Positions 9,006 to 50,794 of a stretch of DNA of 64,000 bases are shown piece by piece; the first letter of the stretch is position 1, and every line of letters starts with the position of its first letter. The translations under genes were made by a program, and so were the position numbers. The notes below the pieces were generated by a model. That model was not told the origin of the DNA, did no database searches, and worked only from the letters and a program-made list of their open reading frames with translations. Origin of the DNA: a virus (lineage: Duplodnaviria; Caudoviricetes); the IMG/VR virus record IMGVR_UViG_3300049988_000286, positions 1-64,000 of that record, one strand, 5' to 3'.

Positions 9006-9635
9006 TTACCGATGCGCGAGGTAGAACAGGGTAGCATCTTCGTCGTTCTTGAAACCGACAGCGTGCGCGTAATGGTGCTCAACAACTGTGCCCGACACAG
9101 GATCATGCTCGCGGTCTCGCACCACCTCGACGAAAAAGTCTTTTTCTCCGATGCTACGCTCACACCAAGTGCGCACCGCCGTATCCTTGAACCTGTTATA
9201 CCCGAGCACGAACCACGTCCACGACTCGCCGCGCCCGCCTATGTCGGGGCGGTTGTCGATCGTCCTGTAGCATTTCAGTGGCCCAGTAAGCCGCTCATCG
9301 ACCATCAACTCGGAGCCATGATAGAATATCGCATCACTAGCGCCGTCTCGGAGAACAAAGACCTTCCCGTTACCGGGTAGCTGATACTCTACCACGCCCT
9401 TGGCACCGCGATTGAACCCCGCACTCTGGCGTACAGTGATCCGAATCCCGCGCGGGAAGAAAGGACTGTTGCTCCAATAGATCGCGGAGCGACGCTCACG
9501 CTCTTCCTTCTCGCGAAGATCAGCCGCCGTCGCATTGCGCCATATGACGGGCGAGAACCCATGACCGACCTGCATGATGACGCGGCGGAAGGGCCATATG
9601 CCCTTGACTACATTCTGGTAAATGGGAGCGCTCAA
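9006..9635 (-). CDS. hypothetical protein with KOW-like region and C-terminal FxxExDA family domain
   Basis: Ends WCERSI...FKNDEDATLFYLAHR. Confidence 0.65.
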   Translation of the reverse strand: MSAPIYQNVVKGIWPFRRVIMQVGHGFSPVIWRNATAADLREKEERERRSAIYWSNSPFFPRGIRITVRQSAGFNRGAKGVVEYQLPGNGKVFVLRDGASDAIFYHGSELMVDERLTGPLKCYRTIDNRPDIGGRGESWTWFVLGYNRFKDTAVRTWCERSIGEKDFFVEVVRDREHDPVSGTVVEHHYAHAVGFKNDEDATLFYLAHR

Positions 9636-9922
9636 AACTCTGCCTCGATTGCTCGCTCAAAGACGAGTGGTTGCGACCAAAAGGTCAGGGGATTGTGGAT
9701 GAGGTCGAACATCATGGCGCTCGCCTCATCGGAGAAAAAGATGAAATTGATGCAACCCACGTCGAAGTTCTCGAAGCCGCAGCCGACGATATTATCGTGC
9801 CCGATGGTGTCGAAGACTTCCTCCGCCAGCCCCGCCCTATAGGCACTACGAAGGAAGTGCATCGCCATCCAGAACGAGCGTTCGCGGGAGCCGAAACCAA
9901 TTGCTGATCGATACACCTTCAT
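9632..9922 (-). CDS. FxxExDA-family small protein
   Basis: TGATG coupling to ligase-like gene; FFSDEASAMMFDL. Confidence 0.6.
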   Translation of the reverse strand: MKVYRSAIGFGSRERSFWMAMHFLRSAYRAGLAEEVFDTIGHDNIVGCGFENFDVGCINFIFFSDEASAMMFDLIHNPLTFWSQPLVFERAIEAEF

Positions 9923-10548
9923 CAGAAGGAGTAAGCCTTGCGTGTGCGACGGCACTTGATCTGTCCTACGGTGTTGGACTTCTGTCGCGTGCAGAGGGAG
10001 AGCTTCTGCTTGGGATTCTTGAGGACCAGCCCCTCCTGCTCCTCGCCCTTGAGGTTTGCGAATAGCGTCGCGAAGCCCTCGTCGTATTCGACTGGTAACC
10101 AGAGGTTCGGGTTGACCACGAAGTGAGTCATGGTCTCCGTGGCATCATCGGTCATCAGACGATCGTGGAGGATATCCTGACGCTCCTCCTGCGTGGCCCC
10201 AACAAGATACTCGCCATCGTTGACCAGAATATCGTTGACGTAATTGACCTCGCGCAGTCCCGCCACTTTGTTGTGGAGCAACTCGGCCACGAAGACATAC
10301 CAGCCTGTGCCGGGCAGATCGGTGAAGGCGCGCATCACCTCCGGGGTCGGGGTCCACGCCTTGTGGACCTCGTTGTGGCGGTTCATGGCGATGATCGACT
10401 TGTCGGGAGCGACGGCGATCACCGAACAGGTGCCATTTAATTTCGCCTGTGCGATGTAGCCCTGTCGCTGGAAAGTATGAAGGAGCGTCGGGTCAACCGC
10501 GATCTCGGGACGTGGGGGCCACAGGTAGGCGAATTCATCGTAGCGCAT
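9922..10548 (-). CDS. ATP-dependent ligase adenylation-domain-only protein
   Basis: Motif I QAKLNGT, III AEL, IIIa VNDIL, IV EGLVLK, V KCRR; 208 aa with no OB domain. Confidence 0.7.
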   Translation of the reverse strand: MRYDEFAYLWPPRPEIAVDPTLLHTFQRQGYIAQAKLNGTCSVIAVAPDKSIIAMNRHNEVHKAWTPTPEVMRAFTDLPGTGWYVFVAELLHNKVAGLREVNYVNDILVNDGEYLVGATQEERQDILHDRLMTDDATETMTHFVVNPNLWLPVEYDEGFATLFANLKGEEQEGLVLKNPKQKLSLCTRQKSNTVGQIKCRRTRKAYSF

Positions 10549-17569: not shown

Positions 17570-17629
17570 AAAAATTATCGTCACTGAAAATAGTGGTTGA
17601 CCGGTCACCGAACTCTGCTAGAAGGGGGT

Positions 17630-17838
17630 CATCGAAACGAAGCAAGCTTCGGATCAACCAACGCAGGAGGCGATTATGTAACGGCAAGGGCCAACCCTTC
17701 TAGGAGCCAAGGGTTTTTAGTGACAGAAAGTCAGCGGCGCGCGTGATCATCGCGCAGCCTTCGGCGCAGAGCGCCAAGAGGAAGTGTTATCATCATCACT
17801 CTAACCTAGACGCCATCGAGCAATCGGTGGCGTCTTTC
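17630..17838 (+). ncRNA. candidate structured small RNA containing SD-AUG-UAA
   Basis: TTGACC/TAGAAG promoter at 17597-17624; several hairpins; terminal stem AGACGCCATCGA-gcaa-TCGGTGGCGTCT then TTC. Confidence 0.45.
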
Positions 17839-17855
17839 AGTTCAAGGAGGGCGCG

Positions 17856-18038
17856 ATGGGAAAATGGTCACAACTCGGGCTGGCAATCTCGCAGCGCGTG
17901 CATCACGCCCCGGTGAAAACCGTGCGGGCTACGAACAAGCCTCGACGCAAGAAAACTCCGCCTTCCCCGACGCTGTTCGAGATGTGCGGACGAGACCGCG
18001 ACCCTCTCGACGATCCCTTGGACGATCTTTACCGCTGA
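17856..18038 (+). CDS. hypothetical protein
   Basis: Strong SD AAGGAGG; 60 aa. Confidence 0.55.
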   Translation: MGKWSQLGLAISQRVHHAPVKTVRATNKPRRKKTPPSPTLFEMCGRDRDPLDDPLDDLYR

Positions 18039-18370
18039 TCCCGCCGTCCCGGCACACCCATGAGGCGGAACATCACAGCGTCGGTCTCTTCGAAGAAGTG
18101 CAGCCGCATCCGATCGATGGTTGCGCCCCGACCGCCGATGTAGCGTCCGGTCACGTACCAAGGCGAGCCCTCATAGTCGAGCCACGCCTCCTCGATTACG
18201 CGGTCATAAACATCATCGAGCGTCAACGTGACGCTGGTCGCGCACTTACCCCAATAATCGGCCCGGTAATCGTAGGCGCGCATAACAGGCTGCTGGCGAT
18301 GGCCTTCGCGAGGGAAGCCCATTGACCAAAGGTCATTGTCGGCAATCAGGTAGTCGGTCAGACTGATCAT
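18029..18370 (-). CDS. FxxExDA-family protein
   Basis: FFEETDAVMFRLMG. Confidence 0.65.
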   Translation of the reverse strand: MISLTDYLIADNDLWSMGFPREGHRQQPVMRAYDYRADYWGKCATSVTLTLDDVYDRVIEEAWLDYEGSPWYVTGRYIGGRGATIDRMRLHFFEETDAVMFRLMGVPGRRDQR

Positions 18371-18708
18371 TCGCCTAATCCCCACATGCGCATCATGGCG
18401 TAGTCGGAGCGACTCTCGAACCAGAACTCATCAATGACAATGACGGTAAATCGCTGTCCGAATGAATCCGTCTCTTCGGCACTGCGGCCCATGACGAGCC
18501 ACCGTGCCTCCGTCTCGAAGTCGAGGAGGTCTTCATTGATTTCGTCAAGATTGCCCGTGATCTTGTGCTGTAGCACTTCCCTCATCGCGGCGGCACGGGC
18601 GTAGCGGCGCAGGAGCGGGCGATCGAGATGATTGACCGGGATCATCATGCGCGACTTCCCATCGCGGAATACTGGTCGCCGTTCATTGAAGAGTCTGCTC
18701 GTGAACAT
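18367..18708 (-). CDS. FxxExDA-family protein
   Basis: FESRSDYAMMRMWG. Confidence 0.6.
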   Translation of the reverse strand: MFTSRLFNERRPVFRDGKSRMMIPVNHLDRPLLRRYARAAAMREVLQHKITGNLDEINEDLLDFETEARWLVMGRSAEETDSFGQRFTVIVIDEFWFESRSDYAMMRMWGLGE

Positions 18709-18779
18709 CACACCCGCGATACTCGCTAGTTCGCAGCCGGGCAATTGTTTTCTCCGCCCCGGCGTGATATCCGTGCATC

Positions 18780-18989
18780 ATGTTCAGCAAGATCGAGATT
18801 ACACGCATCGGAGAGCGCTTCCACGTGCGGTTCGATCGCGTCATCAGCGAGAACCTCACCCAGTATAGCGAGATGCTGCTGTGGCTTCGAGATAATTGTT
18901 CGAACGACTTCAGGATCGTCAACAATACGACGATCGCGCTCTCGACGGAGGAAGACGCCACCCTGCTGGTTTTACGCTGGCAATCCTGA
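18780..18989 (+). CDS. FxxExDA-family protein (array member 1)
   Basis: WLRDNC...STEEDATLLVLRW. Confidence 0.7.
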   Translation: MFSKIEITRIGERFHVRFDRVISENLTQYSEMLLWLRDNCSNDFRIVNNTTIALSTEEDATLLVLRWQS

Positions 18990-19012
18990 CCGACATGTGG
19001 TAGCCGAACTAC

Positions 19013-19243
19013 ATGGACGGATTGATCTTCGGTGAGACCACTGCGGTCAACGGCGGCTGGACGGTCGCTGTCAGCTATGGAGCGGGTCTGCTGTCGATCC
19101 TTCCTCTCGCTAATCCACCCGTGGTGGAAGAGATATCCAATTGGTGCGATGATCGTGGCATTGAGGTCTTCGTCGCCGATTGGCGGCATCTCGGTTTCCC
19201 CACCGAGACCGATGCCATGATGTTCGTGCTCGCCAGTCGATGA
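19013..19243 (+). CDS. FxxExDA-family protein (array member 2)
   Basis: WCDDRG...FPTETDAMMFVLA. Confidence 0.7.
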   Translation: MDGLIFGETTAVNGGWTVAVSYGAGLLSILPLANPPVVEEISNWCDDRGIEVFVADWRHLGFPTETDAMMFVLASR

Positions 19244-19461
19244 AGGCCGCGTTACTATCTGGCTCGGACAACGGTTGGACCGTTCAGTTCATCCGGGATG
19301 CGCCATTGTCGCCTTACAACTTCGATTCGCCGAAAAACTTCAACGCGATAATGGAGTGGTTGGCCGATAATGTGCCGAATGGTCGGTGTCGCGTTGGTTG
19401 GTCGGCGATCTTTTTCGATGATGAAGCCGATGCGCTTATCTGCTACACGGCCTTCCGATGA
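19240..19461 (+). CDS. FxxExDA-family protein (array member 3)
   Basis: WLADNV...FDDEADALICYTAF; ATGA coupling. Confidence 0.7.
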   Translation: MKAALLSGSDNGWTVQFIRDAPLSPYNFDSPKNFNAIMEWLADNVPNGRCRVGWSAIFFDDEADALICYTAFR

Positions 19462-19655
19462 GGCCTCGGATTACTCGTGGCTTCACGGATGAGTATCAGC
19501 GCCACTGGTTCGAGTTTTCTAACTTCATCCCTTTGCTTCCCGTGATGGCGTGGATCGATACCAATCTCCCGCCAGAGAGTTACATCCTCTTCGGCTGTAT
19601 GTTCCAGATCACTGACCCGCATCACGCTACCTTGTTCGAGTTGACTTGGCGATGA
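19458..19655 (+). CDS. FxxExDA-family protein (array member 4)
   Basis: WIDTNL...ITDPHHATLFELTW. Confidence 0.7.
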   Translation: MRPRITRGFTDEYQRHWFEFSNFIPLLPVMAWIDTNLPPESYILFGCMFQITDPHHATLFELTWR

Positions 19656-19858
19656 TGGGACGGATCATCGCCGTTTTTCCGATGCAGACGGGTGAATCGT
19701 GGTTAGTCTGCTGGGACGTGCTGGGCTTTCAGGATTACCTAGAAAGCGTAAAACCTTGGTGCACGGCGAACCTCGAAGATCACGACTACGAGGTCTCGTC
19801 CAGCATCAGGGTCTATAGCGAGGAGGACGCCACGTTGCTGCGATTGAGGTTCGAATGA
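19652..19858 (+). CDS. FxxExDA-family protein (array member 5)
   Basis: WCTANL...VYSEEDATLLRLRF. Confidence 0.7.
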   Translation: MMGRIIAVFPMQTGESWLVCWDVLGFQDYLESVKPWCTANLEDHDYEVSSSIRVYSEEDATLLRLRFE

Positions 19859-20130
19859 CGGAACGCTTCCTCTACTCGGAGACCGGGTTCGTCCCCGCGA
19901 AATTATTTCAGTTCCTGCCCATGGCTACCCGCCACGCCATGCTGGCTAACATCGTCACGGCGCAGAACCTTACTGGATCGGCGACAATGATCGGTGACGA
20001 CATGGTGGGAGCAATCGATCGTTGGTGCGTGACTAATTGCACGGCGAGGTGGTGCTACATGGACAGTTGCATCATGTTCGAGTCGCCGGTGGACAAAGCG
20101 CTCTTCCTCACTGCCCGTCCCCAGACATGA
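19855..20130 (+). CDS. FxxExDA-family protein (array member 6)
   Basis: WCVTNC...FESPVDKALFLTA. Confidence 0.7.
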   Translation: MTERFLYSETGFVPAKLFQFLPMATRHAMLANIVTAQNLTGSATMIGDDMVGAIDRWCVTNCTARWCYMDSCIMFESPVDKALFLTARPQT

Positions 20131-20183
20131 CACCAATTTCCATATTGCGTCTCCTGCCCGCGACCTGATAGCGCATTGTCATC

Positions 20184-20450
20184 ATGGCCACAACAGAGAT
20201 ACACCTACGCGCAACGGAGATGCACTGTGTGCCGCAATGGTGGTCAACAACACCTATCGATCGGTGGGCGGTGTTCTTCGCGATTGAGGAGGAGGGGGGA
20301 ATGGTGTCCGACACCTTCCTCCATACTGGCGCGCGGATGATGATCACTCGCTGGTGTCAGGAGAATTGCTCGGGCCAATATCGGATTGATGATGATTGTG
20401 TCCGCTTCGATCTGGAAGCCGACGCCGTGCTCGCCATGGTGGCGTGGTAA
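20184..20450 (+). CDS. FxxExDA-family protein (array member 7)
   Basis: WCQENC...FDLEADAVLAMVAW. Confidence 0.7.
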   Translation: MATTEIHLRATEMHCVPQWWSTTPIDRWAVFFAIEEEGGMVSDTFLHTGARMMITRWCQENCSGQYRIDDDCVRFDLEADAVLAMVAW

Positions 20451-20469
20451 AAATGCCGGTGGTTCCCCA

Positions 20470-20742
20470 ATGATCTTTGCAACAGAGATACGCGACGGAA
20501 GTCACGATCGCCCGATCTACGCGCGCCGGCACAATCAAGCTTGGATTGTTCCGTTTCGACAGGATGACGGTGACCGTCACTCACAACTCTACCCTCTGAC
20601 CGATAACTATTACGAGAACAAAGCCTTGCTCTACCGATGGATAGAAGAAAACGGTTGTGGTGACCATCACATGTTCAGCGATGCTCTGGGGTTCGAGCAC
20701 GAGGCCGATGCCATGATGTGCTATCTGGCGTGGCGGCGATGA
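20470..20742 (+). CDS. FxxExDA-family protein (array member 8)
   Basis: WIEENG...FEHEADAMMCYLAW. Confidence 0.7.
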   Translation: MIFATEIRDGSHDRPIYARRHNQAWIVPFRQDDGDRHSQLYPLTDNYYENKALLYRWIEENGCGDHHMFSDALGFEHEADAMMCYLAWRR

Positions 20743-20996
20743 GGGATTTTCGCGCAACCGCGAAGATGCGCTTCCCCACGCAACCCGGCGTCATGGGTCA
20801 CTATGTCGTCTTCATTGTCGCGGGACCGGGGGCGATGGAACCCGTCGATCCATTCTCCTTCAAGGACTCCGACCAGACCAAACAAATCCATGATTGGCTC
20901 GCAGACAATGCAGCGGGGACTTACCGCCTTGCGCCGCAGGGTGTGATCTTCGACAACGAGGATGATGCCGTCTTCTGCTTCATGGCGTTTCGATGA
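20739..20996 (+). CDS. FxxExDA-family protein (array member 9)
   Basis: WLADNA...FDNEDDAVFCFMAF. Confidence 0.7.
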   Translation: MRDFRATAKMRFPTQPGVMGHYVVFIVAGPGAMEPVDPFSFKDSDQTKQIHDWLADNAAGTYRLAPQGVIFDNEDDAVFCFMAFR

Positions 20997-21277
20997 GAGC
21001 GCGGCGATGGGGGCGGTACGGCGGATGGATATCCCCAAGCGAACGGTTCCGATGGGAGGTGGAATTCGTCGTCCAGACGGCGGGGGTGAGGATGAACGGC
21101 AGCATCGACTACTACGATGACTACCCCTTCCATCGCAGTGATATGCCGCACTCGAAGACAATCGAGACATGGCTCCGCGATAACATCCCCGCAGACACCT
21201 ACATAGTTCTCAACGACGCTGTGTTGTTTGAACAAGAGGAGGATGCCATCCTGTGCTTCACCGCATTCGCTAAATAG
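20993..21277 (+). CDS. FxxExDA-family protein (array member 10)
   Basis: WLRDNI...FEQEEDAILCFTAF. Confidence 0.7.
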   Translation: MRARRWGRYGGWISPSERFRWEVEFVVQTAGVRMNGSIDYYDDYPFHRSDMPHSKTIETWLRDNIPADTYIVLNDAVLFEQEEDAILCFTAFAK

Positions 21278-34306: not shown

Positions 34307-34788
34307 TGTCCGATCTTCCTGCCGGTTACCTCGTCCGCGTCACCTCGTGGGAGAATGATGCCGATAATTACAAGACCGTGGAACGGGCAGGTTTGAGCGA
34401 GAGCGACGCGCGGTTCTTCATCCGGGCCGCGCAGCTTTTCCGGAGCGTGAACAGGCACGAGTTCGGCGACGCGCCGCGCTTCGGTAATGCGGACATTCGA
34501 GGCGATCGTCCCGGTCGTGCAAACGACGCCGGACTTCCCGACGCCTTGGAGGCGCTGGTGCGCGAGCACAAAGCTGTGTTCGGATCGGTTCCCCAATATT
34601 GGGATACCGACACGTGGAAGAACGAGGCCCAGCACGCCGAGTACCGCGTGGACTACACCCATGAGGTCTTCTATGACCTGATCGGGACGTGGGCGGAAGG
34701 CGAGTATTGGCGCGTCTATGAATCGCACGTGGTGTTGTTCGTGCCAGAGGTGATTCGTGATGTGACGGCCTCGTTCGCCACGGGATGA
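34306..34788 (+). CDS. hypothetical protein
   Basis: TGATG coupling. Confidence 0.65.
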   Translation: MSDLPAGYLVRVTSWENDADNYKTVERAGLSESDARFFIRAAQLFRSVNRHEFGDAPRFGNADIRGDRPGRANDAGLPDALEALVREHKAVFGSVPQYWDTDTWKNEAQHAEYRVDYTHEVFYDLIGTWAEGEYWRVYESHVVLFVPEVIRDVTASFATG

Positions 34789-35012
34789 GGTTGCTCGCCT
34801 CGCCTCCGATGCCATTCGGGCAGCAGCACATCGTTGCCATCCGGGGCTTTCGCGATCGTTGCCGCACAGCCTTGAAGCATTGGCTTCGAGAGAATGGATA
34901 TCTGACCGCAGAGATCGGGATGGATATTGGCATATGGTGCAACGTCTATTTCACCGATTCCCATGAGGCCGATCTGTTCTATCTCACCTTTGCGTCGGTG
35001 AGGACGCTGTGA
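34785..35012 (+). CDS. FxxExDA-family protein
   Basis: WLRENG...FTDSHEADLFYLTF. Confidence 0.65.
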   Translation: MRLLASPPMPFGQQHIVAIRGFRDRCRTALKHWLRENGYLTAEIGMDIGIWCNVYFTDSHEADLFYLTFASVRTL

Positions 35013-35236
35013 TTCAGTCACGGCGGATATTCTTCCACGGGTATGCGAAAAGGTGGGCATGTGCCTTGCGTGAACCGAGCCTCCGGGTTTCTTCGACCGC
35101 GATGGATGTGCGTCGATGGCTAGATCAGAATGGTATGCCGCAAGCCAGCGTGGGTAACTCCAAAATGATCTGGTTCGATAGCGAGGATGACGCTGCGTTG
35201 TTCCATCTCGCCTTCGTGACCGGTATGGAATTATAG
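35009..35236 (+). CDS. FxxExDA-family protein
   Basis: WLDQNG...FDSEDDAALFHLAF. Confidence 0.65.
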   Translation: MIQSRRIFFHGYAKRWACALREPSLRVSSTAMDVRRWLDQNGMPQASVGNSKMIWFDSEDDAALFHLAFVTGMEL

Positions 35237-36491: not shown

Positions 36492-36662
36492 ATGACCTAT
36501 ACCCAAACCGCTCCCGGTGGCGCGACGCGCGTTTTCGAGACCTTCATCGACGATGCGGGCTCGACGTGGCTGATCATCATCGAGGGGGAGGATCGGCATG
36601 AAATGTGCCTCAAGCCCAGCGATGTCATGGGTCTGGGGCGTATCTTGGGATTTGGGCGATGA
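36492..36662 (+). CDS. hypothetical protein
   Basis: 56 aa, coupled by ATGA to next gene. Confidence 0.5.
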   Translation: MTYTQTAPGGATRVFETFIDDAGSTWLIIIEGEDRHEMCLKPSDVMGLGRILGFGR

Positions 36663-37144
36663 AGCCCCTCTGGCTTTATCGCCCGCTCCTCAACATTCGC
36701 CCGGTGCTGGAATTTGCGCAACGCGTTGGCGTCACCAAAGTGATGCCGCCCGAGCATCTTCATGCCACGCTCGCGACCGTCCGTCCCCCGTGCGACTGGG
36801 ATGACCTCGCACTCGAAACCGACGAGATCATCATCCCGGCGGGGATGAAGAAAATCCAGATTTTCGGCTTCCACGCCAAGGGACTGACCTTCGGCCACGA
36901 GCGGTTCTCCTCTCGCCATGCCGAGTTGGCGCGCCTCTACCCTGCGATGGATCACGCCTCGTTGCTGCGTCCCCACGTCACCCTCTACCGTGGGGGCAAG
37001 ATGCCGCGCGGAGATGTCGGCTACGAGGGTGAACTTGTTTTCGGTCCCGAGATCGCCGTTGAATTCGATGAGGTAGAAGCGCGTGGCATCAAGCACGTCA
37101 AACTCGCCGATTACCTTAATGCACGCGAGGACGCCTCGGTGTAG
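36659..37144 (+). CDS. 2H phosphodiesterase, Acb1/T4 gp57B-like
   Basis: LYRPLLN...PEHLHATL...CDWD...LLRPHVTL; two HxT motifs. Confidence 0.75.
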   Translation: MKPLWLYRPLLNIRPVLEFAQRVGVTKVMPPEHLHATLATVRPPCDWDDLALETDEIIIPAGMKKIQIFGFHAKGLTFGHERFSSRHAELARLYPAMDHASLLRPHVTLYRGGKMPRGDVGYEGELVFGPEIAVEFDEVEARGIKHVKLADYLNAREDASV

Positions 37145-37805: not shown

Positions 37806-38078
37806 ATGCAAGGTTTGAGAGAGGCTCCAAGCCCGGCCGATCAGGGATCAAATCCTGAACTGGAGCGGTTCGATTCCGTAGATGCTTCACCATTCCAAAT
37901 CGATCTCGGCATCGACGCCAATGGCCAGATCATGCAATTCAGTGATTTTCAAAGGCAGAGATCGGCTGTCTTGCAATGGTGCAATGATAATTTACCCGCA
38001 GGGTCTTGGCGCTACGGCTACCAAGCGCTTTTACTCGATCGTGAGCAAGACTATATACTCTATACATTAAGCTTTTAG
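37806..38078 (+). CDS. FxxExDA-family protein (start uncertain)
   Basis: WCNDNL...LLDREQDYILYTLSF. Confidence 0.55.
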   Translation: MQGLREAPSPADQGSNPELERFDSVDASPFQIDLGIDANGQIMQFSDFQRQRSAVLQWCNDNLPAGSWRYGYQALLLDREQDYILYTLSF

Positions 38079-39213: not shown

Positions 39214-39366
39214 GTGGCGACGGCAACGATCACCTTGACGGTCACCGGTGACATCACCGATGTGCGCAGCCTTGAGACGCCCGCCCTCGCCGCGATGTTG
39301 GCCAAACTCCCCAATGTAGCGGAAGTGCAATGCACGGTTAGGATCGCGGATGAAGATCACGAGTGA
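39214..39366 (+). CDS. hypothetical protein
   Basis: SD GGAG, GTG start, 50 aa. Confidence 0.45.
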   Translation: MATATITLTVTGDITDVRSLETPALAAMLAKLPNVAEVQCTVRIADEDHE

Positions 39367-39808
39367 ATCACCCGGAGACTTCGAATCTTCGATCGATCGC
39401 TTCTGCGAGCATCTCCTTACGCTTGAAGGGCCTCTCAAGGTCTCTGGATCGGTTCGGGTCTCTGATGGCCAAGCGACCCTCCTCGGGAGCATCGAACCCT
39501 ATCAGTCGATTCCGGGCTTTCAGTATTTCTACACCAAGGATTGGCCGTGTGGCGATCGTATCTTTGACGTGTCAGAGACGATCAACTTTCGCCTTCTCGA
39601 AGAGGGCAGGTTGGTTTGGTTCTGTATGCCCAGACAGCCACCGTGCACTCATGTCCTGACTCTCGTTTATGGCGTTTGGGCGCACAACAAAGAGCCGGTC
39701 CATAATCGCTTCGCTTTCCGGGGCAGCGACGAGGAGGCCTTTGTTCTCGCGCTCCAATACGGAGCACGCTTACAAAAGGCTTGCGACTTCTTTCGAACTG
39801 TGAGATAA
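39350..39808 (+). CDS. protein with C-terminal FxxExDA-like motif
   Basis: FAFRGSDEEAFVLALQYG. Confidence 0.55.
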   Translation: MKITSESPGDFESSIDRFCEHLLTLEGPLKVSGSVRVSDGQATLLGSIEPYQSIPGFQYFYTKDWPCGDRIFDVSETINFRLLEEGRLVWFCMPRQPPCTHVLTLVYGVWAHNKEPVHNRFAFRGSDEEAFVLALQYGARLQKACDFFRTVR

Positions 39809-42802: not shown

Positions 42803-43456
42803 ATGTTTCTCAAATTCCTCGATCTTTCCCTCGCTAGCCGTGTTTTTGTGGTTGGTGATATCCACGGTGAGTTCACCATTTTGGATGACCGCCTCGCCGA
42901 TCTCAAATTTGATTATGAGCGCGATCGACTGTTGAGCGTCGGCGATCTCGTTGATCGCGGACCCGAGTCGGAACGGGCGATCGAATACGCGGTGCAGCCG
43001 TGGTTCGATCATGTTCGTGGCAACCACGAGGAATTGTGCGAAGGCGCGCTGCGCGGCGACATGTGGCAGATGCATCGCAAGAATGGCGGCATGTGGTTCG
43101 ACCTGTTGAGCGATGACGATCGCCGGGAGCATTCCCGCATCCTTAACAATGCTCCCGTGGCTATCGAGGCGCTACTTCCGAGTGGACGGCGGATTGGCGT
43201 TGTTCACGCCGATATTCCGACCAATGACTGGGACGATATGCGCAACCTCGCGCCCGAGATGGAGCGGAGTTGGACGCGCTGGTGCATGTGGAACCGTGAT
43301 CGTCTCTCGAACCCACCCCTAGATGGTATTCGGAATATCGATCACGTCTACTTCGGCCATACCCCGAAGAAGAGCGTCTATCGGGTAGGCAACACATCGT
43401 GGATCGACACGGGCGCTTTCGCTACAAAGAACTTGACGGTGCTCGAAATCAAATAA
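42803..43456 (+). CDS. metallophosphoesterase (lambda NinI/PPP-like)
   Basis: VVGDIHGE, VGDLVDRG, VRGNHE, VVHAD, FGHTP, IDTGA. Confidence 0.9.
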   Translation: MFLKFLDLSLASRVFVVGDIHGEFTILDDRLADLKFDYERDRLLSVGDLVDRGPESERAIEYAVQPWFDHVRGNHEELCEGALRGDMWQMHRKNGGMWFDLLSDDDRREHSRILNNAPVAIEALLPSGRRIGVVHADIPTNDWDDMRNLAPEMERSWTRWCMWNRDRLSNPPLDGIRNIDHVYFGHTPKKSVYRVGNTSWIDTGAFATKNLTVLEIK

Positions 43457-43898
43457 GGGGATCGAACCACAGGACGCCGGGGTCTTGCCGTCTCGGGGAG
43501 GTGATGGTGACCATGAGGGGCAGGTGGCAGCGAAGGCGTAACAGCCAAGCGCTGCTTTCCTCTGTCTGGAACGCGAAGAGCAACGCGCTGCGCTGTTCAA
43601 AACTGAATAGTGCCTCTCCGCAAAACTCGCGGATGAGTTCCGGAAAAGACGAGGCGTTCCAGATGTGTCGCCCCACCCGTTCCAAATAAGTCTCGTCCTC
43701 GGTCGCCTCATAGATGCGAAGGCTCGCCGCAATCGCCTGATCGGTCGAGATGGCTTCAAGAAAGTCGCGATCACGGGCGAGATCGATCTCTACATCTACC
43801 AGCATGGAGTATTTATAAATACGGGATGCGCATCGTTGAAATCCGCTCAAATCCTGATCTGAATCCCAAGGTGAGCGTGCTCGACATGCTTCGACCAT
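43449..43898 (-). CDS. protein with C-terminal FxxExDA-like motif
   Basis: FAFQTEESSAWLLRLR; start uncertain. Confidence 0.5.
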   Translation of the reverse strand: MVEACRARSPWDSDQDLSGFQRCASRIYKYSMLVDVEIDLARDRDFLEAISTDQAIAASLRIYEATEDETYLERVGRHIWNASSFPELIREFCGEALFSFEQRSALLFAFQTEESSAWLLRLRCHLPLMVTITSPRRQDPGVLWFDPLI

Positions 43899-44968
43899 AC
43901 CGGGATCGCGAAGATGCTTTCGTATCTTTCACAAAAATAGAGAAGCTAGGCATAAACCCAAACAGCGCATTCTCGACGCCCGTGGGCATCTACTGCTATC
44001 CCTTGAAGGAGATGTGGTCGATGTATGTCGAGGATCGCGAGCACACGATTGCCCACGATTCGGACGGTATCGGAAAGCTTGTGCCCTTCGCTGGTCAGCA
44101 GCCGTTCGTCACCCTATTCTCCTGCCCGCCGCAGGAGGGTTTGATCAACGACATCGGCGATGTCACACAAGCTGACTTCGATGCCGCCGTGGAAAAAATC
44201 GTCCCAATCTATTCCGACTGGGTGGATCGCACTATGCCGAACTATCGCCAGACGATGCAGAAGCATAGTGATGAATCGATGGACGAGATGTCGAGAAAGG
44301 CAATCACGGGAATCATCAAGGATGGTATGACCTCCTATGGCGCTAATAACAAGACACCCGGTGGACTGCTCTGGTATCTGACTTGGAAACTCTCTAACTC
44401 AATGAGTGGTATCGAGCGCGACCGAGGACTTGCGCGTAATACCGATAATCGCGTGGCGTTTATCTGGAACGCATTGATGCGTCGCATCGGGATCATTGGC
44501 ATCTGTGATCGTAATGGCAAGGGGGTGATCCACGTCGCCGAACCGATGCAAGCCGTGTTCTTCTCGCTGAAGGGACTGCGCGTCATCGCTCGCTTCAACA
44601 ACAAGCACGTGAGCGATGAGCGCAATGCTCATGCCAAAGCAAGAGGTTTGGTGAATACTCAACGTAAACGTAGTCGCGAAGCGGTGTTGTCTTTTGTCGA
44701 AAACAAGCTTTTTGGCCAGCGAATCGATCTTCCCGCAGACGCGAATGTGGTGATCGAACAAGTCCGTGCGTGGCGAGCCGCCAACGGCTTTCCTTCTCAA
44801 CCGGTTACGCGACATCATCTTGTCAGCGAAATCTGCAAACACCTTCCCGGTGTCGAAACCGATACTCTTCTTGTGATGACTGCTGTCCGAGCGATTGATA
44901 ATATCTTTCATGAGGACACAACCGATGGGCAGTTGTCTATCTGGCACGCTATTATTGAAAACGAGTAA
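43826..44968 (+). CDS. 380 aa late protein, putative virion internal protein
   Basis: ATAAATA-N4-ATG; MRIVEIRS. Confidence 0.7.
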   Translation: MRIVEIRSNPDLNPKVSVLDMLRPYRDREDAFVSFTKIEKLGINPNSAFSTPVGIYCYPLKEMWSMYVEDREHTIAHDSDGIGKLVPFAGQQPFVTLFSCPPQEGLINDIGDVTQADFDAAVEKIVPIYSDWVDRTMPNYRQTMQKHSDESMDEMSRKAITGIIKDGMTSYGANNKTPGGLLWYLTWKLSNSMSGIERDRGLARNTDNRVAFIWNALMRRIGIIGICDRNGKGVIHVAEPMQAVFFSLKGLRVIARFNNKHVSDERNAHAKARGLVNTQRKRSREAVLSFVENKLFGQRIDLPADANVVIEQVRAWRAANGFPSQPVTRHHLVSEICKHLPGVETDTLLVMTAVRAIDNIFHEDTTDGQLSIWHAIIENE

Positions 44969-50130: not shown

Positions 50131-50203
50131 GTTATTCTCCAATTCATTTCTGTATGGTAGTGAGATCGTTTCCGTCTCCCTTTATTTAGTTAAGTGAGCA
50201 TTT

Positions 50204-50794
50204 ATGTTGAATTTAGAGCACATGATGGAGCGATATGGAATAAAACTATTGGTGCTCTATCGTCGTTGCCATAATGGATATAATCGTGACCAGAACAGAA
50301 TAGCGATCTTCGAGTTTAGCGACTGGCGAGACATAGAGCGGCTCATCATGTGCGCCGACTACCCCTTCAAGCGGGGAGGGACTATCCTGAAGAGGATGAT
50401 TGGTGACGTTGATCGTGTCGGTCTCTTCCATACCAGCACGATTGATTACCTTTATGAGCGCTCGGCAAGTGTTGCCCCCGTCGAGTTCACGGTGTCATAT
50501 ACCTTGGTCAACCGCAGCTATATCGCGCGTGAGTATGACAACGTGATGATGTTGTTGGAGGGAGCATCGAAGGGTCAACAGAGCGGACGGCTCGCGCTGA
50601 TCACCAATAAGGATATGGCTGATGAACTCGATTGGCTCGGCGATTGGACTATCTGGATAAGCCCATCCTTCACCGCTGTAATCAAACTTTGGCCCTATCG
50701 TCGCATCGACGATCACGAACTCACGCTCTTTCGACTGCGCTGGGGACATTTGCTCCTTGCCCCGATGGAGAGTTCGAGTTACGCTGCGGTATGA
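50204..50794 (+). CDS. protein with C-terminal FxxExDA-like motif
   Basis: IDDHELTLFRLRWG. Confidence 0.6.
   Translation: MLNLEHMMERYGIKLLVLYRRCHNGYNRDQNRIAIFEFSDWRDIERLIMCADYPFKRGGTILKRMIGDVDRVGLFHTSTIDYLYERSASVAPVEFTVSYTLVNRSYIAREYDNVMMLLEGASKGQQSGRLALITNKDMADELDWLGDWTIWISPSFTAVIKLWPYRRIDDHELTLFRLRWGHLLLAPMESSSYAAV

What the first reader, a model, noticed from the sequence alone, without database searches (positions are those of the whole stretch)
18029..21277. Tandem array of 10 (plus 2 divergent) highly diverged paralogues; about 20 family members in the window
Seen: 65-115 aa ORFs, mostly ATGA-coupled, sharing W-[LCI]-x-x-N followed 15-25 residues later by F-x-x-[ED]-x-DA-x-x-[FLC]-x-[LM]-x-[WF], with variable N-termini. 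More copies or fused domains occur at 9006, 9632, 34785, 35009, 37806, 39350, 43449, 50204, 57709, 58512 and 59784. Inference: one small alpha/beta scaffold expanded into a diversified repertoire, consistent with an arms-race family such as anti-defence binders or host-protein or RNA adaptors. I cannot name a characterised family for it.
Basis: partly seen in the sequence, partly recalled or inferred. Interest (0 to 1): 0.75.

Follow-up and report, generated by a model that had tools for sequence, protein, structure and literature searches.

The report
Expanded small-protein family in a megaphage
A 500-kb T4-related phage from leaf surfaces carries about 45-50 very diverged copies (12 in this array) of one small protein domain that matches no catalogued family, probably a set of intracellular binders aimed at host proteins, though nothing tests that function yet.

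Summary
The array is real. Ten plus-strand genes (18780-21277, 65-94 aa) share one C-terminal module. Seven junctions in the locus are ATGA overlaps, counting the minus-strand pair.

- **Window count:** a profile built only from homologues outside this genome finds 14 members in the window and 48-49 in the 499,572-bp genome. Reversed or shuffled ORFs give none. The two minus-strand "divergent" copies are only weakly supported.
- **Fold:** AlphaFold gives a confident strand-strand-helix-strand-strand-helix sandwich. It resembles DCoH only generically.
- **Databases:** no match in Pfam, PHROGs, NCBIfam, PADLOC or PDB sequences. About 1,500 metagenomic clusters do match; every context sampled is a large phage.
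- **Evolution:** copies are under purifying selection (pooled dN/dS 0.22). A 542-kb relative keeps the flanking kinase at 64% identity but has no one-to-one orthologues in its array.
- **Properties:** mostly acidic, with no conserved catalytic residues. The three Atu_ph07 members were absent from its published virion proteome.

My best reading, at about 40%, is a diversified intracellular binder repertoire for host takeover or anti-defence. Other first readers noted this family in other windows of the same genome.

The parts
18780..18989 (+). Family member 1, 69 aa
   Evidence: Outside-genome profile A3, E 5.5e-14. Start codon.
19013..19243 (+). Family member 2, 76 aa
   Evidence: A3 profile, E 4.2e-9.
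19240..19461 (+). Family member 3, 73 aa, ATGA-coupled. This is the protein that was modelled.
   Evidence: A3 profile, E 8.9e-12. AlphaFold pLDDT 89.9, pTM 0.77, strand-strand-helix-strand-strand-helix.
19458..19655 (+). Family member 4, 65 aa, ATGA-coupled. The DA dipeptide is replaced by HA.
   Evidence: A3 profile, E 1.5e-3. Genome-built profile, E 4.9e-10. dN/dS 0.62 against a strain contig, from only 7 changes.
19652..19858 (+). Family member 5, 68 aa, ATGA-coupled
   Evidence: A3 profile, E 7.4e-8. dN/dS 0.05.
19855..20130 (+). Family member 6, 91 aa, ATGA-coupled
   Evidence: A3 profile, E 2.9e-6. dN/dS 0.26.
20184..20450 (+). Family member 7, 88 aa
   Evidence: A3 profile, E 1.5e-13.
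20470..20742 (+). Family member 8, 90 aa. The start is uncertain: ATG 20470 or 20389.
   Evidence: A3 profile, E 1.2e-13. Candidate starts.
20739..20996 (+). Family member 9, 85 aa, ATGA-coupled
   Evidence: A3 profile, E 1.3e-12.
20993..21277 (+). Family member 10, 94 aa, ATGA-coupled
   Evidence: A3 profile, E 1.1e-11.
18029..18370 (-). Probable distant member, 113 aa, divergently transcribed
   Evidence: A3 profile, E 0.087. hhalign against A3 gives 55% probability, aligned in register over W, F-x2-E-x-DA. The ESM Atlas model is too poor to judge.
18367..18708 (-). Doubtful distant member, 113 aa, ATGA-coupled to the gene at 18029-18370
   Evidence: No A3 hit. hhalign probability 16%. It has an orthologue (34% identity) and a paralogue in the 542-kb relative.
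9006..9656 (-). Longer ORF (up to 216 aa) with the family domain at its C-terminus
   Evidence: A3 profile, E 1.9e-5. The N-terminal part has no Pfam family.
34785..35012 (+). Family member, 75 aa
   Evidence: A3 profile, E 5.3e-7.
35009..35236 (+). Family member, 75 aa, coupled to the previous gene
   Evidence: A3 profile, E 4e-11.
37806..38078 (+). Family member, 90 aa, about 0.7 kb downstream of an Acb1 homologue
   Evidence: A3 profile, E 9.9e-7. Acb1 match.

Best explanation
**What it is (shown).** The array belongs to a phage-specific family of small, soluble, single-domain proteins that matches no catalogued family.
- The domain is about 70 residues: an N-terminal beta-hairpin (W-x-V-x-F), a helix ending W-[C/L]-x2-N, a second hairpin, and a closing helix that starts E-x-D-A-x-L-[F/C]-x-L. 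Two helices pack on one face of a four-stranded sheet.
- The conserved residues are mostly hydrophobic. The conserved polar ones are Asn, Asp and, less strictly, Glu, plus one Gly.
- The connector between the first hairpin and the first helix varies strongly in length.
- The family has expanded to about 45-50 genes in this 500-kb T4-related phage. Many sit in translationally coupled tandem arrays.

**Structural reading (inferred).** The hydrophobic residues form the core, and the few polar ones lie near the helix ends. The exposed sheet face varies freely between copies.

**How it probably works (inferred, about 40%).** Each copy is an intracellular binding module made during infection and not packaged into the virion. 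It uses its variable sheet face and loops to bind and neutralise, or redirect, a different host protein, such as a defence or stress-response component. The repertoire is reshuffled quickly between related phages as hosts change.
For: **Family and copy number**
- The outside-genome profile finds 48-49 copies. Reversed and shuffled controls give 0.
- 1,507 cluster representatives match at E<=1e-3. Structural and feature neighbours in the ESM Atlas are clusters labelled 92-100% viral, without a Pfam family.
- No Pfam, PHROGs, NCBIfam, PADLOC or PDB-sequence hit.

**Fold**
- The window member models at pLDDT 89.9 and pTM 0.77.
- The same unit appears twice in a distant two-domain homologue.

**No sign of enzyme or DNA binder**
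- Only W, N, F, D, A and L are strongly conserved. Median pI is 5.2.

**Real genes under selection**
- Pooled dN/dS is 0.22 over six genes against strain contigs.

**Fast turnover**
- The 542-kb relative keeps the adjacent kinase and receiver at 64% identity. Its 10-11-member array has no one-to-one orthologues; best matches are 26-56%, mostly over only part of the protein.
- A 608-kb phage has 29 matches and a 279-kb phage has none.

**Accessory or counter-defence neighbourhood**
- An Acb1 homologue (PF23474, E 5e-8) lies between members at 34.8-35.2 kb and 37.8 kb.
- An Acb2/Tad1-type gene lies 6.7 kb from a member in another phage contig.
- Members in cyanophage-like contigs sit in the auxiliary-gene region.

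**Not virion proteins**
- Atu_ph07 gp255, gp258 and gp313 are family members.
- They are absent from the virion ESI-MS/MS table of PMC6102473, while neighbours gp257, gp311 and gp314 are listed.
Against: - No partner, no expression data and no phenotype exist. No RNA run could be listed.
- Selection between strains is purifying, with no signal of diversifying selection in the small sample.
- The link to Acb1 and Acb2 genes is anecdotal: two loci, no statistics.
- Small proteins are easily missed by gel-based mass spectrometry, so absence from virions is weak evidence.
- The fold is a common two-layer sandwich and says nothing about function.
Confidence: 0.4

Rival explanations
1. Adaptor or assembly-helper family. 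The conserved Asn/Asp/Glu end of the domain docks on one common machine, such as a chaperone, a protease or the prohead. The variable part selects different clients. Members may also pair with each other, including hetero-pairs made from coupled neighbouring genes.
For: - A few polar residues (Asn, Asp, Glu, plus Gly) are conserved amid hypervariable positions.
- Tandem two-domain fusions recur in homologues, as expected if the unit normally pairs.
- ATGA coupling would give equimolar neighbours.
- One member in the 542-kb relative carries a copy of the conserved N-terminal segment of the major capsid protein gp23 (Pfam Gp23, E 2.6e-8). An ESM Atlas cluster of 113 proteins shows the same Pfam family in 13% of its members.
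Against: - Inter-domain packing in the fusion model is not confident (pTM 0.53).
- The conserved polar residues may be plain helix caps.
- Atu_ph07 members were not found in virions.
- The gp23 fusion is a minority form, and this genome has none.
Confidence: 0.2
2. Nucleic-acid-binding regulators: a repertoire of small transcription or translation factors, distantly related to AP2-type DNA-binding domains.
For: - The profile picks up a 7-repeat AP2 protein through the last strand and helix. hhalign against those repeats gives 63% probability.
- A roughly 35-copy zinc-ribbon expansion in phage G was proposed to consist of transcription factors (PMC7824862).
Against: - Members are mostly acidic: median pI 5.2, and only 5 of 43 are above pI 8.
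- No AP2 Pfam hit appeared in 117 members scanned.
- No AP2 or integrase DNA-binding domain appears among the Foldseek or VIA-align matches.
- The similarity covers only a strand-turn-helix motif.
Confidence: 0.1
3. Mostly dispensable products of runaway tandem duplication, with little or no function.
For: - Very low identity between copies.
- Copy number differs widely between phages.
- No recognisable function.
Against: - Reading frames are intact.
- dN/dS is 0.22.
- The core is conserved across about 1,500 clusters from very different phages.
- Translational coupling is kept.
Confidence: 0.05

Closest known systems
DCoH / pterin-4a-carbinolamine dehydratase fold (for example PDB 1uso), and the C-terminal domain of the arginine repressor
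   Same: Same order of elements (strand-strand-helix-strand-strand-helix) and a two-layer sandwich. This is the best structural match: Z 5.9, 2.4 A over 60 residues. In these proteins the fold serves oligomerisation and protein binding (established knowledge).
   Different: - No sequence relation: no Pterin_4a Pfam hit.
- The score lies in the range that the tool's own note calls a common arrangement.
- No conserved histidines.
- The family has its own W-x3-N and E-x-DA signature.
Lineage-specific expansions of small proteins in jumbo phages, for example the roughly 35-copy zinc ribbon of Bacillus phage G (PMC7824862)
   Same: Dozens of diverged copies of one small domain within a single very large phage genome, with function only guessed.
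   Different: - Unrelated fold and sequence.
- This family is not confined to one lineage. It occurs in several T4-related megaphages, cyanophage-like contigs and Atu_ph07.
The other small-gene arrays of this same genome: the 20-copy array at 341.7-348.2 kb (earlier finding e1-5341155) and the 12-copy array at 268.6-273.4 kb (e1-5341137)
   Same: Same genome and same architecture: coupled tandem arrays of diverged 80-120-aa genes that end in a strand, an acidic turn and an amphipathic helix.
   Different: Profile-profile comparison finds no relation to either array (probability below 1%). They are separate families.
Small early host-takeover and anti-defence proteins of T-even phages (IPI*, Arn, Dmd), and the sponge proteins Acb2 and Tad1
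   Same: The resemblance is by analogy, from general knowledge. These are small, often acidic, non-enzymatic phage proteins that act by binding one host or defence component, and they are encoded in variable accessory regions.
   Different: - No sequence or fold match to any of them.
- T4 itself has no member.
- None of those families is known as a 40-50-copy expansion.

Membership tests
The W-x3-N / E-x-DA small-domain family itself (undescribed; defined here by profile A3) | Significant match to a profile built only from homologues outside this genome | tested here: met
   The ten plus-strand array genes score E 5.5e-14 to 1.5e-3. Four further window ORFs score E 1.9e-5 to 4e-11. Reversed and shuffled controls give 0 hits.
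The W-x3-N / E-x-DA small-domain family itself | Membership of the two minus-strand genes (18029-18370 and 18367-18708) | tested here: inconclusive
   HMM E 0.087 for the first and no hit for the second. hhalign gives 55% and 16%. The ESM Atlas model has pLDDT 0.41.
The W-x3-N / E-x-DA small-domain family itself | Shared predicted fold: hairpin, helix, hairpin, helix | tested here: met
   Window member: pLDDT 89.9. A distant two-domain homologue shows the strand-helix-strand-strand-helix unit twice, at pLDDT 80.7.
Pterin-4a-carbinolamine dehydratase / DCoH (Pfam PF01329) | Sequence match to the family model | tested here: not met
   No Pfam hit for 10 window members (E<=1) or 107 homologues (E<=0.01).
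Pterin-4a-carbinolamine dehydratase / DCoH (Pfam PF01329) | DCoH-like fold | tested here: inconclusive
   Top VIA-align match is 1uso, at Z 5.9. It does not stand clear of unrelated folds scoring Z 5.0-5.7. Foldseek E is above 0.1.
Pterin-4a-carbinolamine dehydratase / DCoH (Pfam PF01329) | Conserved catalytic histidines | tested here: not met
   No conserved His column in the 150-sequence alignment.
AP2 / integrase-type DNA-binding domain (Pfam PF00847) | Sequence match to the family model | tested here: not met
   No Pfam AP2 hit. hhalign against AP2 repeats of P0095 gives only 63%, over the last hairpin and helix.
AP2 / integrase-type DNA-binding domain (Pfam PF00847) | Basic DNA-binding surface | tested here: not met
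   Median pI is 5.2 in the genome set and 5.9 in the homologues.
Known anti-defence families in Pfam (Acb1, Acb2/Tad1 and others) and PADLOC defence proteins | Sequence match to any such model | tested here: not met
   No hit in Pfam or PADLOC. The Acb1 homologue in the window is a separate neighbouring gene.
Virion or capsid-internal proteins (T4 IPI-type) | Presence in purified virions | tested here: inconclusive
   Atu_ph07 members gp255, gp258 and gp313 are absent from published table S5, while neighbouring genes are present. Small proteins can be missed, and this phage itself has no proteome.

The most novel reading that the evidence does not exclude
The family is a phage-encoded combinatorial binder system. 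A constant end of the domain (the conserved Asn, Asp and Glu) docks onto one common partner or onto a sister copy. The hypervariable sheet face and connector loop recognise many different host targets. Under this reading, translationally coupled neighbours form defined hetero-pairs, and a megaphage carries an antibody-like repertoire of about 50 specificities that is reshuffled between lineages.
Probability: 0.12. Interest if true: 0.85.

Novelty: new variant of a known kind. Interest (0 to 1): 0.5.

Why it matters
- Three unrelated small-gene families together fill roughly a hundred genes of this 500-kb phage. This family is the largest of them and the most widespread outside the genome.
- It has about 1,500 sequence clusters in metagenomes and no entry in Pfam, PHROGs or NCBIfam. 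That makes it a sizeable piece of phage dark matter that can now be named and searched for.
- If the copies are target-specific binders, they would help explain what megaphages do with their extra coding capacity. They would also be a source of new inhibitors of bacterial defence or stress systems.
- A cultured carrier, Agrobacterium phage Atu_ph07 (gp255, gp258, gp313), makes the question experimentally approachable.

Tried and rejected
- **Family libraries.** Pfam, PHROGs, NCBIfam and PADLOC scans, and a PDB sequence search, gave no family.
- **Foldseek.** Nothing below E 0.1 against PDB. BFVD, AFDB and ESM Atlas returned only uncharacterised phage proteins.
- **Word-based homologue search.** It found only near-identical strain variants.
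- **The search for related loci.** The kinase alone found no relative.
- **Cultured phages by BLAST.** blastn of the array, and tblastn of two distant members, against cultured phages found nothing.
- **Cultured phages by profile.** T4, P-SSM2, S-PM2 and phiM12 gave no candidate in the loose first look. This does not prove absence.
- **Expression.** No RNA holder was listed for the array.
- **Reads.** Laying DNA contigs of four runs showed related strains but could not give dN/dS.
- **Promoters and terminators.** Scans were at background level. The T4 late motif TATAAATA is absent from the array.
- **Three-way strain comparison.** The three contigs of the 542-kb relative are identical across the array, so they gave no selection data.
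- **One superfamily for all arrays.** hhalign rejected any relation between this family and the two other arrays.
- **AP2 homology.** Considered and not accepted.
- **Upstream gap.** An Rfam scan of the 17.45-18.15 kb gap found nothing.
Full report
**Setting**

- The window is the first 64 kb of a single 499,572-bp record with 57% G+C.
- It is an IMG/VR virus record that CheckV rates 100% complete.
- The window carries 14 tRNA genes and a tmRNA. It also encodes seryl- and class-I aminoacyl-tRNA synthetase homologues, a T4-type RNA ligase and two histidine kinases.
- Earlier notes of this scan call it a T4-related phage from leaf surfaces. The DNA holders I found are leaf and phyllosphere metagenomes.

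**The observation**

- Ten consecutive plus-strand genes of 65-94 aa lie between 18780 and 21277. Six of their nine junctions are ATGA overlaps.
- Two further genes, 18029-18370 and 18367-18708, lie on the minus strand and are also ATGA-coupled.
- All end in the same module: a helix with W-[C/L/I]-x2-N, then most often 19-20 residues later F-x2-E-x-D-A-x-[L/M]-[F/C]-x-L-x-[F/W].
- Most also have an upstream W-x-V-x-F strand, so the conserved unit is about 70 residues.

**Is it more than chance?**

- An HMM iterated on all stop-to-stop ORFs of the genome converged at 43 members.
- To avoid circularity I built a profile from 107 homologues that are not encoded in this genome (A3).
- That profile finds 49 ORFs at E<=1e-3 and 37 at E<=1e-5. 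It finds none among the same ORFs reversed or shuffled.
- The six-frame genome search gives 48 matches.
- In the window it supports the ten plus-strand genes and four others: 9006-9656(-), 34785-35012, 35009-35236 and 37806-38078.
- The two minus-strand genes are marginal, with E 0.087 and no hit, and hhalign probabilities of 55% and 16%.
They share only a generic strand, acidic turn and amphipathic helix at the C-terminus.
- Other arrays of the family lie at 102.3-103.3 kb (5 copies), 284.3-285.3 kb (3) and 390-395 kb (7 or more).

**Fold**

- I supplied the 43 paralogues as the alignment. AlphaFold2 then models the 73-aa protein of 19240-19461 at pLDDT 89.9 and pTM 0.77. The order of elements is strand, strand, helix, strand, strand, helix.
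- Foldseek finds nothing in the PDB below E 0.1.
- The exhaustive VIA-align search puts DCoH (1uso) first at Z 5.9, with 2.4 A over 60 residues. ACT-like, MzrA and designed ferredoxin folds follow at Z 5.0-5.7. By the tool's own note, that range is a common arrangement.
- BFVD and the ESM Atlas return uncharacterised phage proteins at TM 0.6-0.7.
- A distant homologue with two copies of the domain models as two strand-helix-strand-strand-helix units at pLDDT 80.7. The relative orientation of the units is unreliable (pTM 0.53).

**Distribution**

- An exhaustive HMM search of 1.84 billion cluster representatives gives 1,507 proteins at E<=1e-3. Most are 60-100 aa.
- The consensus of the homologue alignment is W-C-x2-N-C-x-G ... 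F-x2-E-x-D-A-x-L-F-x-L-x-F.
- At least one hit, a 7-repeat AP2 protein, looks like a motif-level false positive. The count is therefore an upper estimate.
- None of 107 homologues matches Pfam, PHROGs or NCBIfam. None of the 43 genome members matches PADLOC. The profile matches no PDB sequence.
- Where sources give a name, it is "hypothetical protein".
- Every sampled context is a phage:
  - a 542-kb contig with the same GAF-HWE kinase and receiver next to a 10-11-member array;
  - a 135-kb contig with a family-B DNA polymerase;
  - two cyanophage-like contigs with heme oxygenase and bilin reductase, one of which holds 8 members in 16 kb;
  - a 608-kb IMG/VR phage with 29 matches.
- A 279-kb phage, two proviruses, T4, P-SSM2, S-PM2 and phiM12 gave none.
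- The cultured Agrobacterium phage Atu_ph07 has at least three members, all annotated as hypothetical.

**Evolution**

- Paralogues are 15-35% identical.
- Between this phage and the 542-kb relative, the flanking kinase and receiver are 64% identical. The array genes have no one-to-one orthologues apart from one minus-strand gene at 34%. Best matches are 26-56%, mostly over only part of the protein.
- The nearest outside relative of any member is 50% identical, and it matches a copy from a different array.
- Two short contigs of a closely related strain align to the window and to the 284-kb array at 92-94% DNA identity. They allow a Nei-Gojobori estimate over six family genes.
- The pooled values are dS 0.23, dN 0.05 and dN/dS 0.22. 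Single genes range from 0.05 to 0.82, the highest values resting on very few changes.
- The genes are therefore kept by purifying selection while the repertoire turns over on longer time scales.

**Properties that bear on function**

- Strongly conserved columns are W, V, F, W, N, F, D, A, L and F/C. No histidine, serine or lysine column suggests catalysis.
- The cysteines of W-C-x2-N-C alternate with L, I, V or A. They are therefore core positions, not metal ligands.
- Median pI is 5.2. Only 5 of 43 genome members exceed pI 8.
- Length variation sits mainly in the connector between the first hairpin and the first helix, which runs roughly 10-37 residues.
- Longer members have N-terminal extensions without any Pfam domain.
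- I mapped the three Atu_ph07 members to gp255, gp258 and gp313, using gene order and molecular weights of neighbours. They are not in the published virion ESI-MS/MS list. Neighbours gp257, gp311 and gp314 are in it (PMC6102473).
- In the window, a gene at 36605-37144 matches the anti-CBASS phosphodiesterase Acb1 (PF23474, 33.1 bits against a cut-off of 27). It lies between members at 34785-35236 and 37806-38078.

**Interpretation**

- Shown: this is a real, phage-specific, uncatalogued small-domain family with a confidently predicted common fold. It is expanded to about 45-50 copies here and under purifying selection.
- Inferred: the copies are intracellular, non-enzymatic binding modules aimed at host proteins. 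Their variable surfaces are carried on a constant core.
- I put this at about 40%. The alternatives are:
  - an adaptor, pairing or assembly role (about 20%), suggested by recurrent two-domain fusions and by a relative's member fused to the conserved N-terminal segment of gp23;
  - nucleic-acid-binding regulators (about 10%), weakened by the acidic charge and the absence of AP2-type hits;
  - near-neutral duplicates (about 5%), contradicted by dN/dS and wide conservation.
- The remainder is "something else".

**Relation to other findings of the scan**

- Other first readers noted the same module in other windows of this genome: e1-5341071, e1-5341090, e1-5341204, e1-5341150 and e1-5341229. My genome-wide profile search agrees with them on a large dispersed family.
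- Two other arrays have a similar architecture: 341.7-348.2 kb (followed up as e1-5341155) and 268.6-273.4 kb (e1-5341137). By profile-profile comparison they are unrelated to this family (probability below 1%).

**Novelty**

- The phenomenon of large expansions of small proteins in jumbo phages is known. An example is the roughly 35-copy zinc ribbon of phage G (PMC7824862).
- The family itself matches none of the libraries searched, and the two literature sources checked (PMC7824862 and PMC6102473) do not describe it.
- I therefore rate it a new variant of a known kind, of moderate interest. Interest would rise sharply if partners were found.

Noticed in passing
L020:8568-8927 (542-kb relative, in the syntenic array): One family member carries an N-terminal copy of the most conserved N-terminal segment of the T4-type major capsid protein gp23 (Pfam Gp23, E 2.6e-8, profile positions 3-33). 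It is nearly identical to this phage's own gp23 segment at 215881-217107. An ESM Atlas cluster of 113 phage proteins shows the same Pfam family in 13% of its members. This could be a capsid-directed or decoy form. This genome has no such fusion.
   Followed up: partly
window 36605-37144 (+): A 179-aa gene matches the anti-CBASS phosphodiesterase Acb1 (PF23474, E 5.3e-8, above the curated cut-off). Family members flank it on both sides.
   Followed up: partly
genome 341.7-348.2 kb and 268.6-273.4 kb (outside the window): Two more coupled arrays of diverged small genes. Their C-terminal signatures are V-R-[DE]-R-D-x2-L-x-x-L and G-D-E-H-x-L-T-L-A-x-L-L. hhalign shows they are unrelated to the family studied here. 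One member of the studied family (347104-347349) sits inside the first array.
   Followed up: partly
window 17570-18028: A gap of about 460 bp between the receiver gene and the array has no convincing ORF. It has a TTGACC...TAGAAG promoter-like site and a 9-bp long-range helix (CUAGAAGGG / CCCUUCUAG). Folding z-score is only -1.9 and there is no Rfam match.
   Followed up: partly
window 19261-20312 against L052; genome 284310-285897 against L053: Synonymous divergence between two strains jumps from 0.02 to 0.61 between adjacent array genes. This suggests a recombination mosaic inside the arrays.
   Followed up: partly
L049:16857-17090: A 135-kb phage contig that carries a family member also encodes an Acb2/Tad1-hairpin protein, within a run of small genes 6.7 kb away.
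   Followed up: no
P0095 (723-aa protein from the representative search): A seven-repeat AP2-domain protein reaches E 3e-7 against the family profile. The score comes only from summing the strand plus E-E-A-A-L-C-Y helix motif. Some of the 1,507 weak hits are therefore likely motif-level false positives.
   Followed up: yes
window 9632-10144(-), 39320-39808(+), 43449-43928(-), 50198-50794(+), 57697-58272(+), 58512-59063(-): Longer ORFs end in a strand, an acidic turn and an L-x-x-L helix, like the family's last 20 residues. They do not match the profile. This C-terminal motif seems to recur in many unrelated proteins of this phage.
   Followed up: partly
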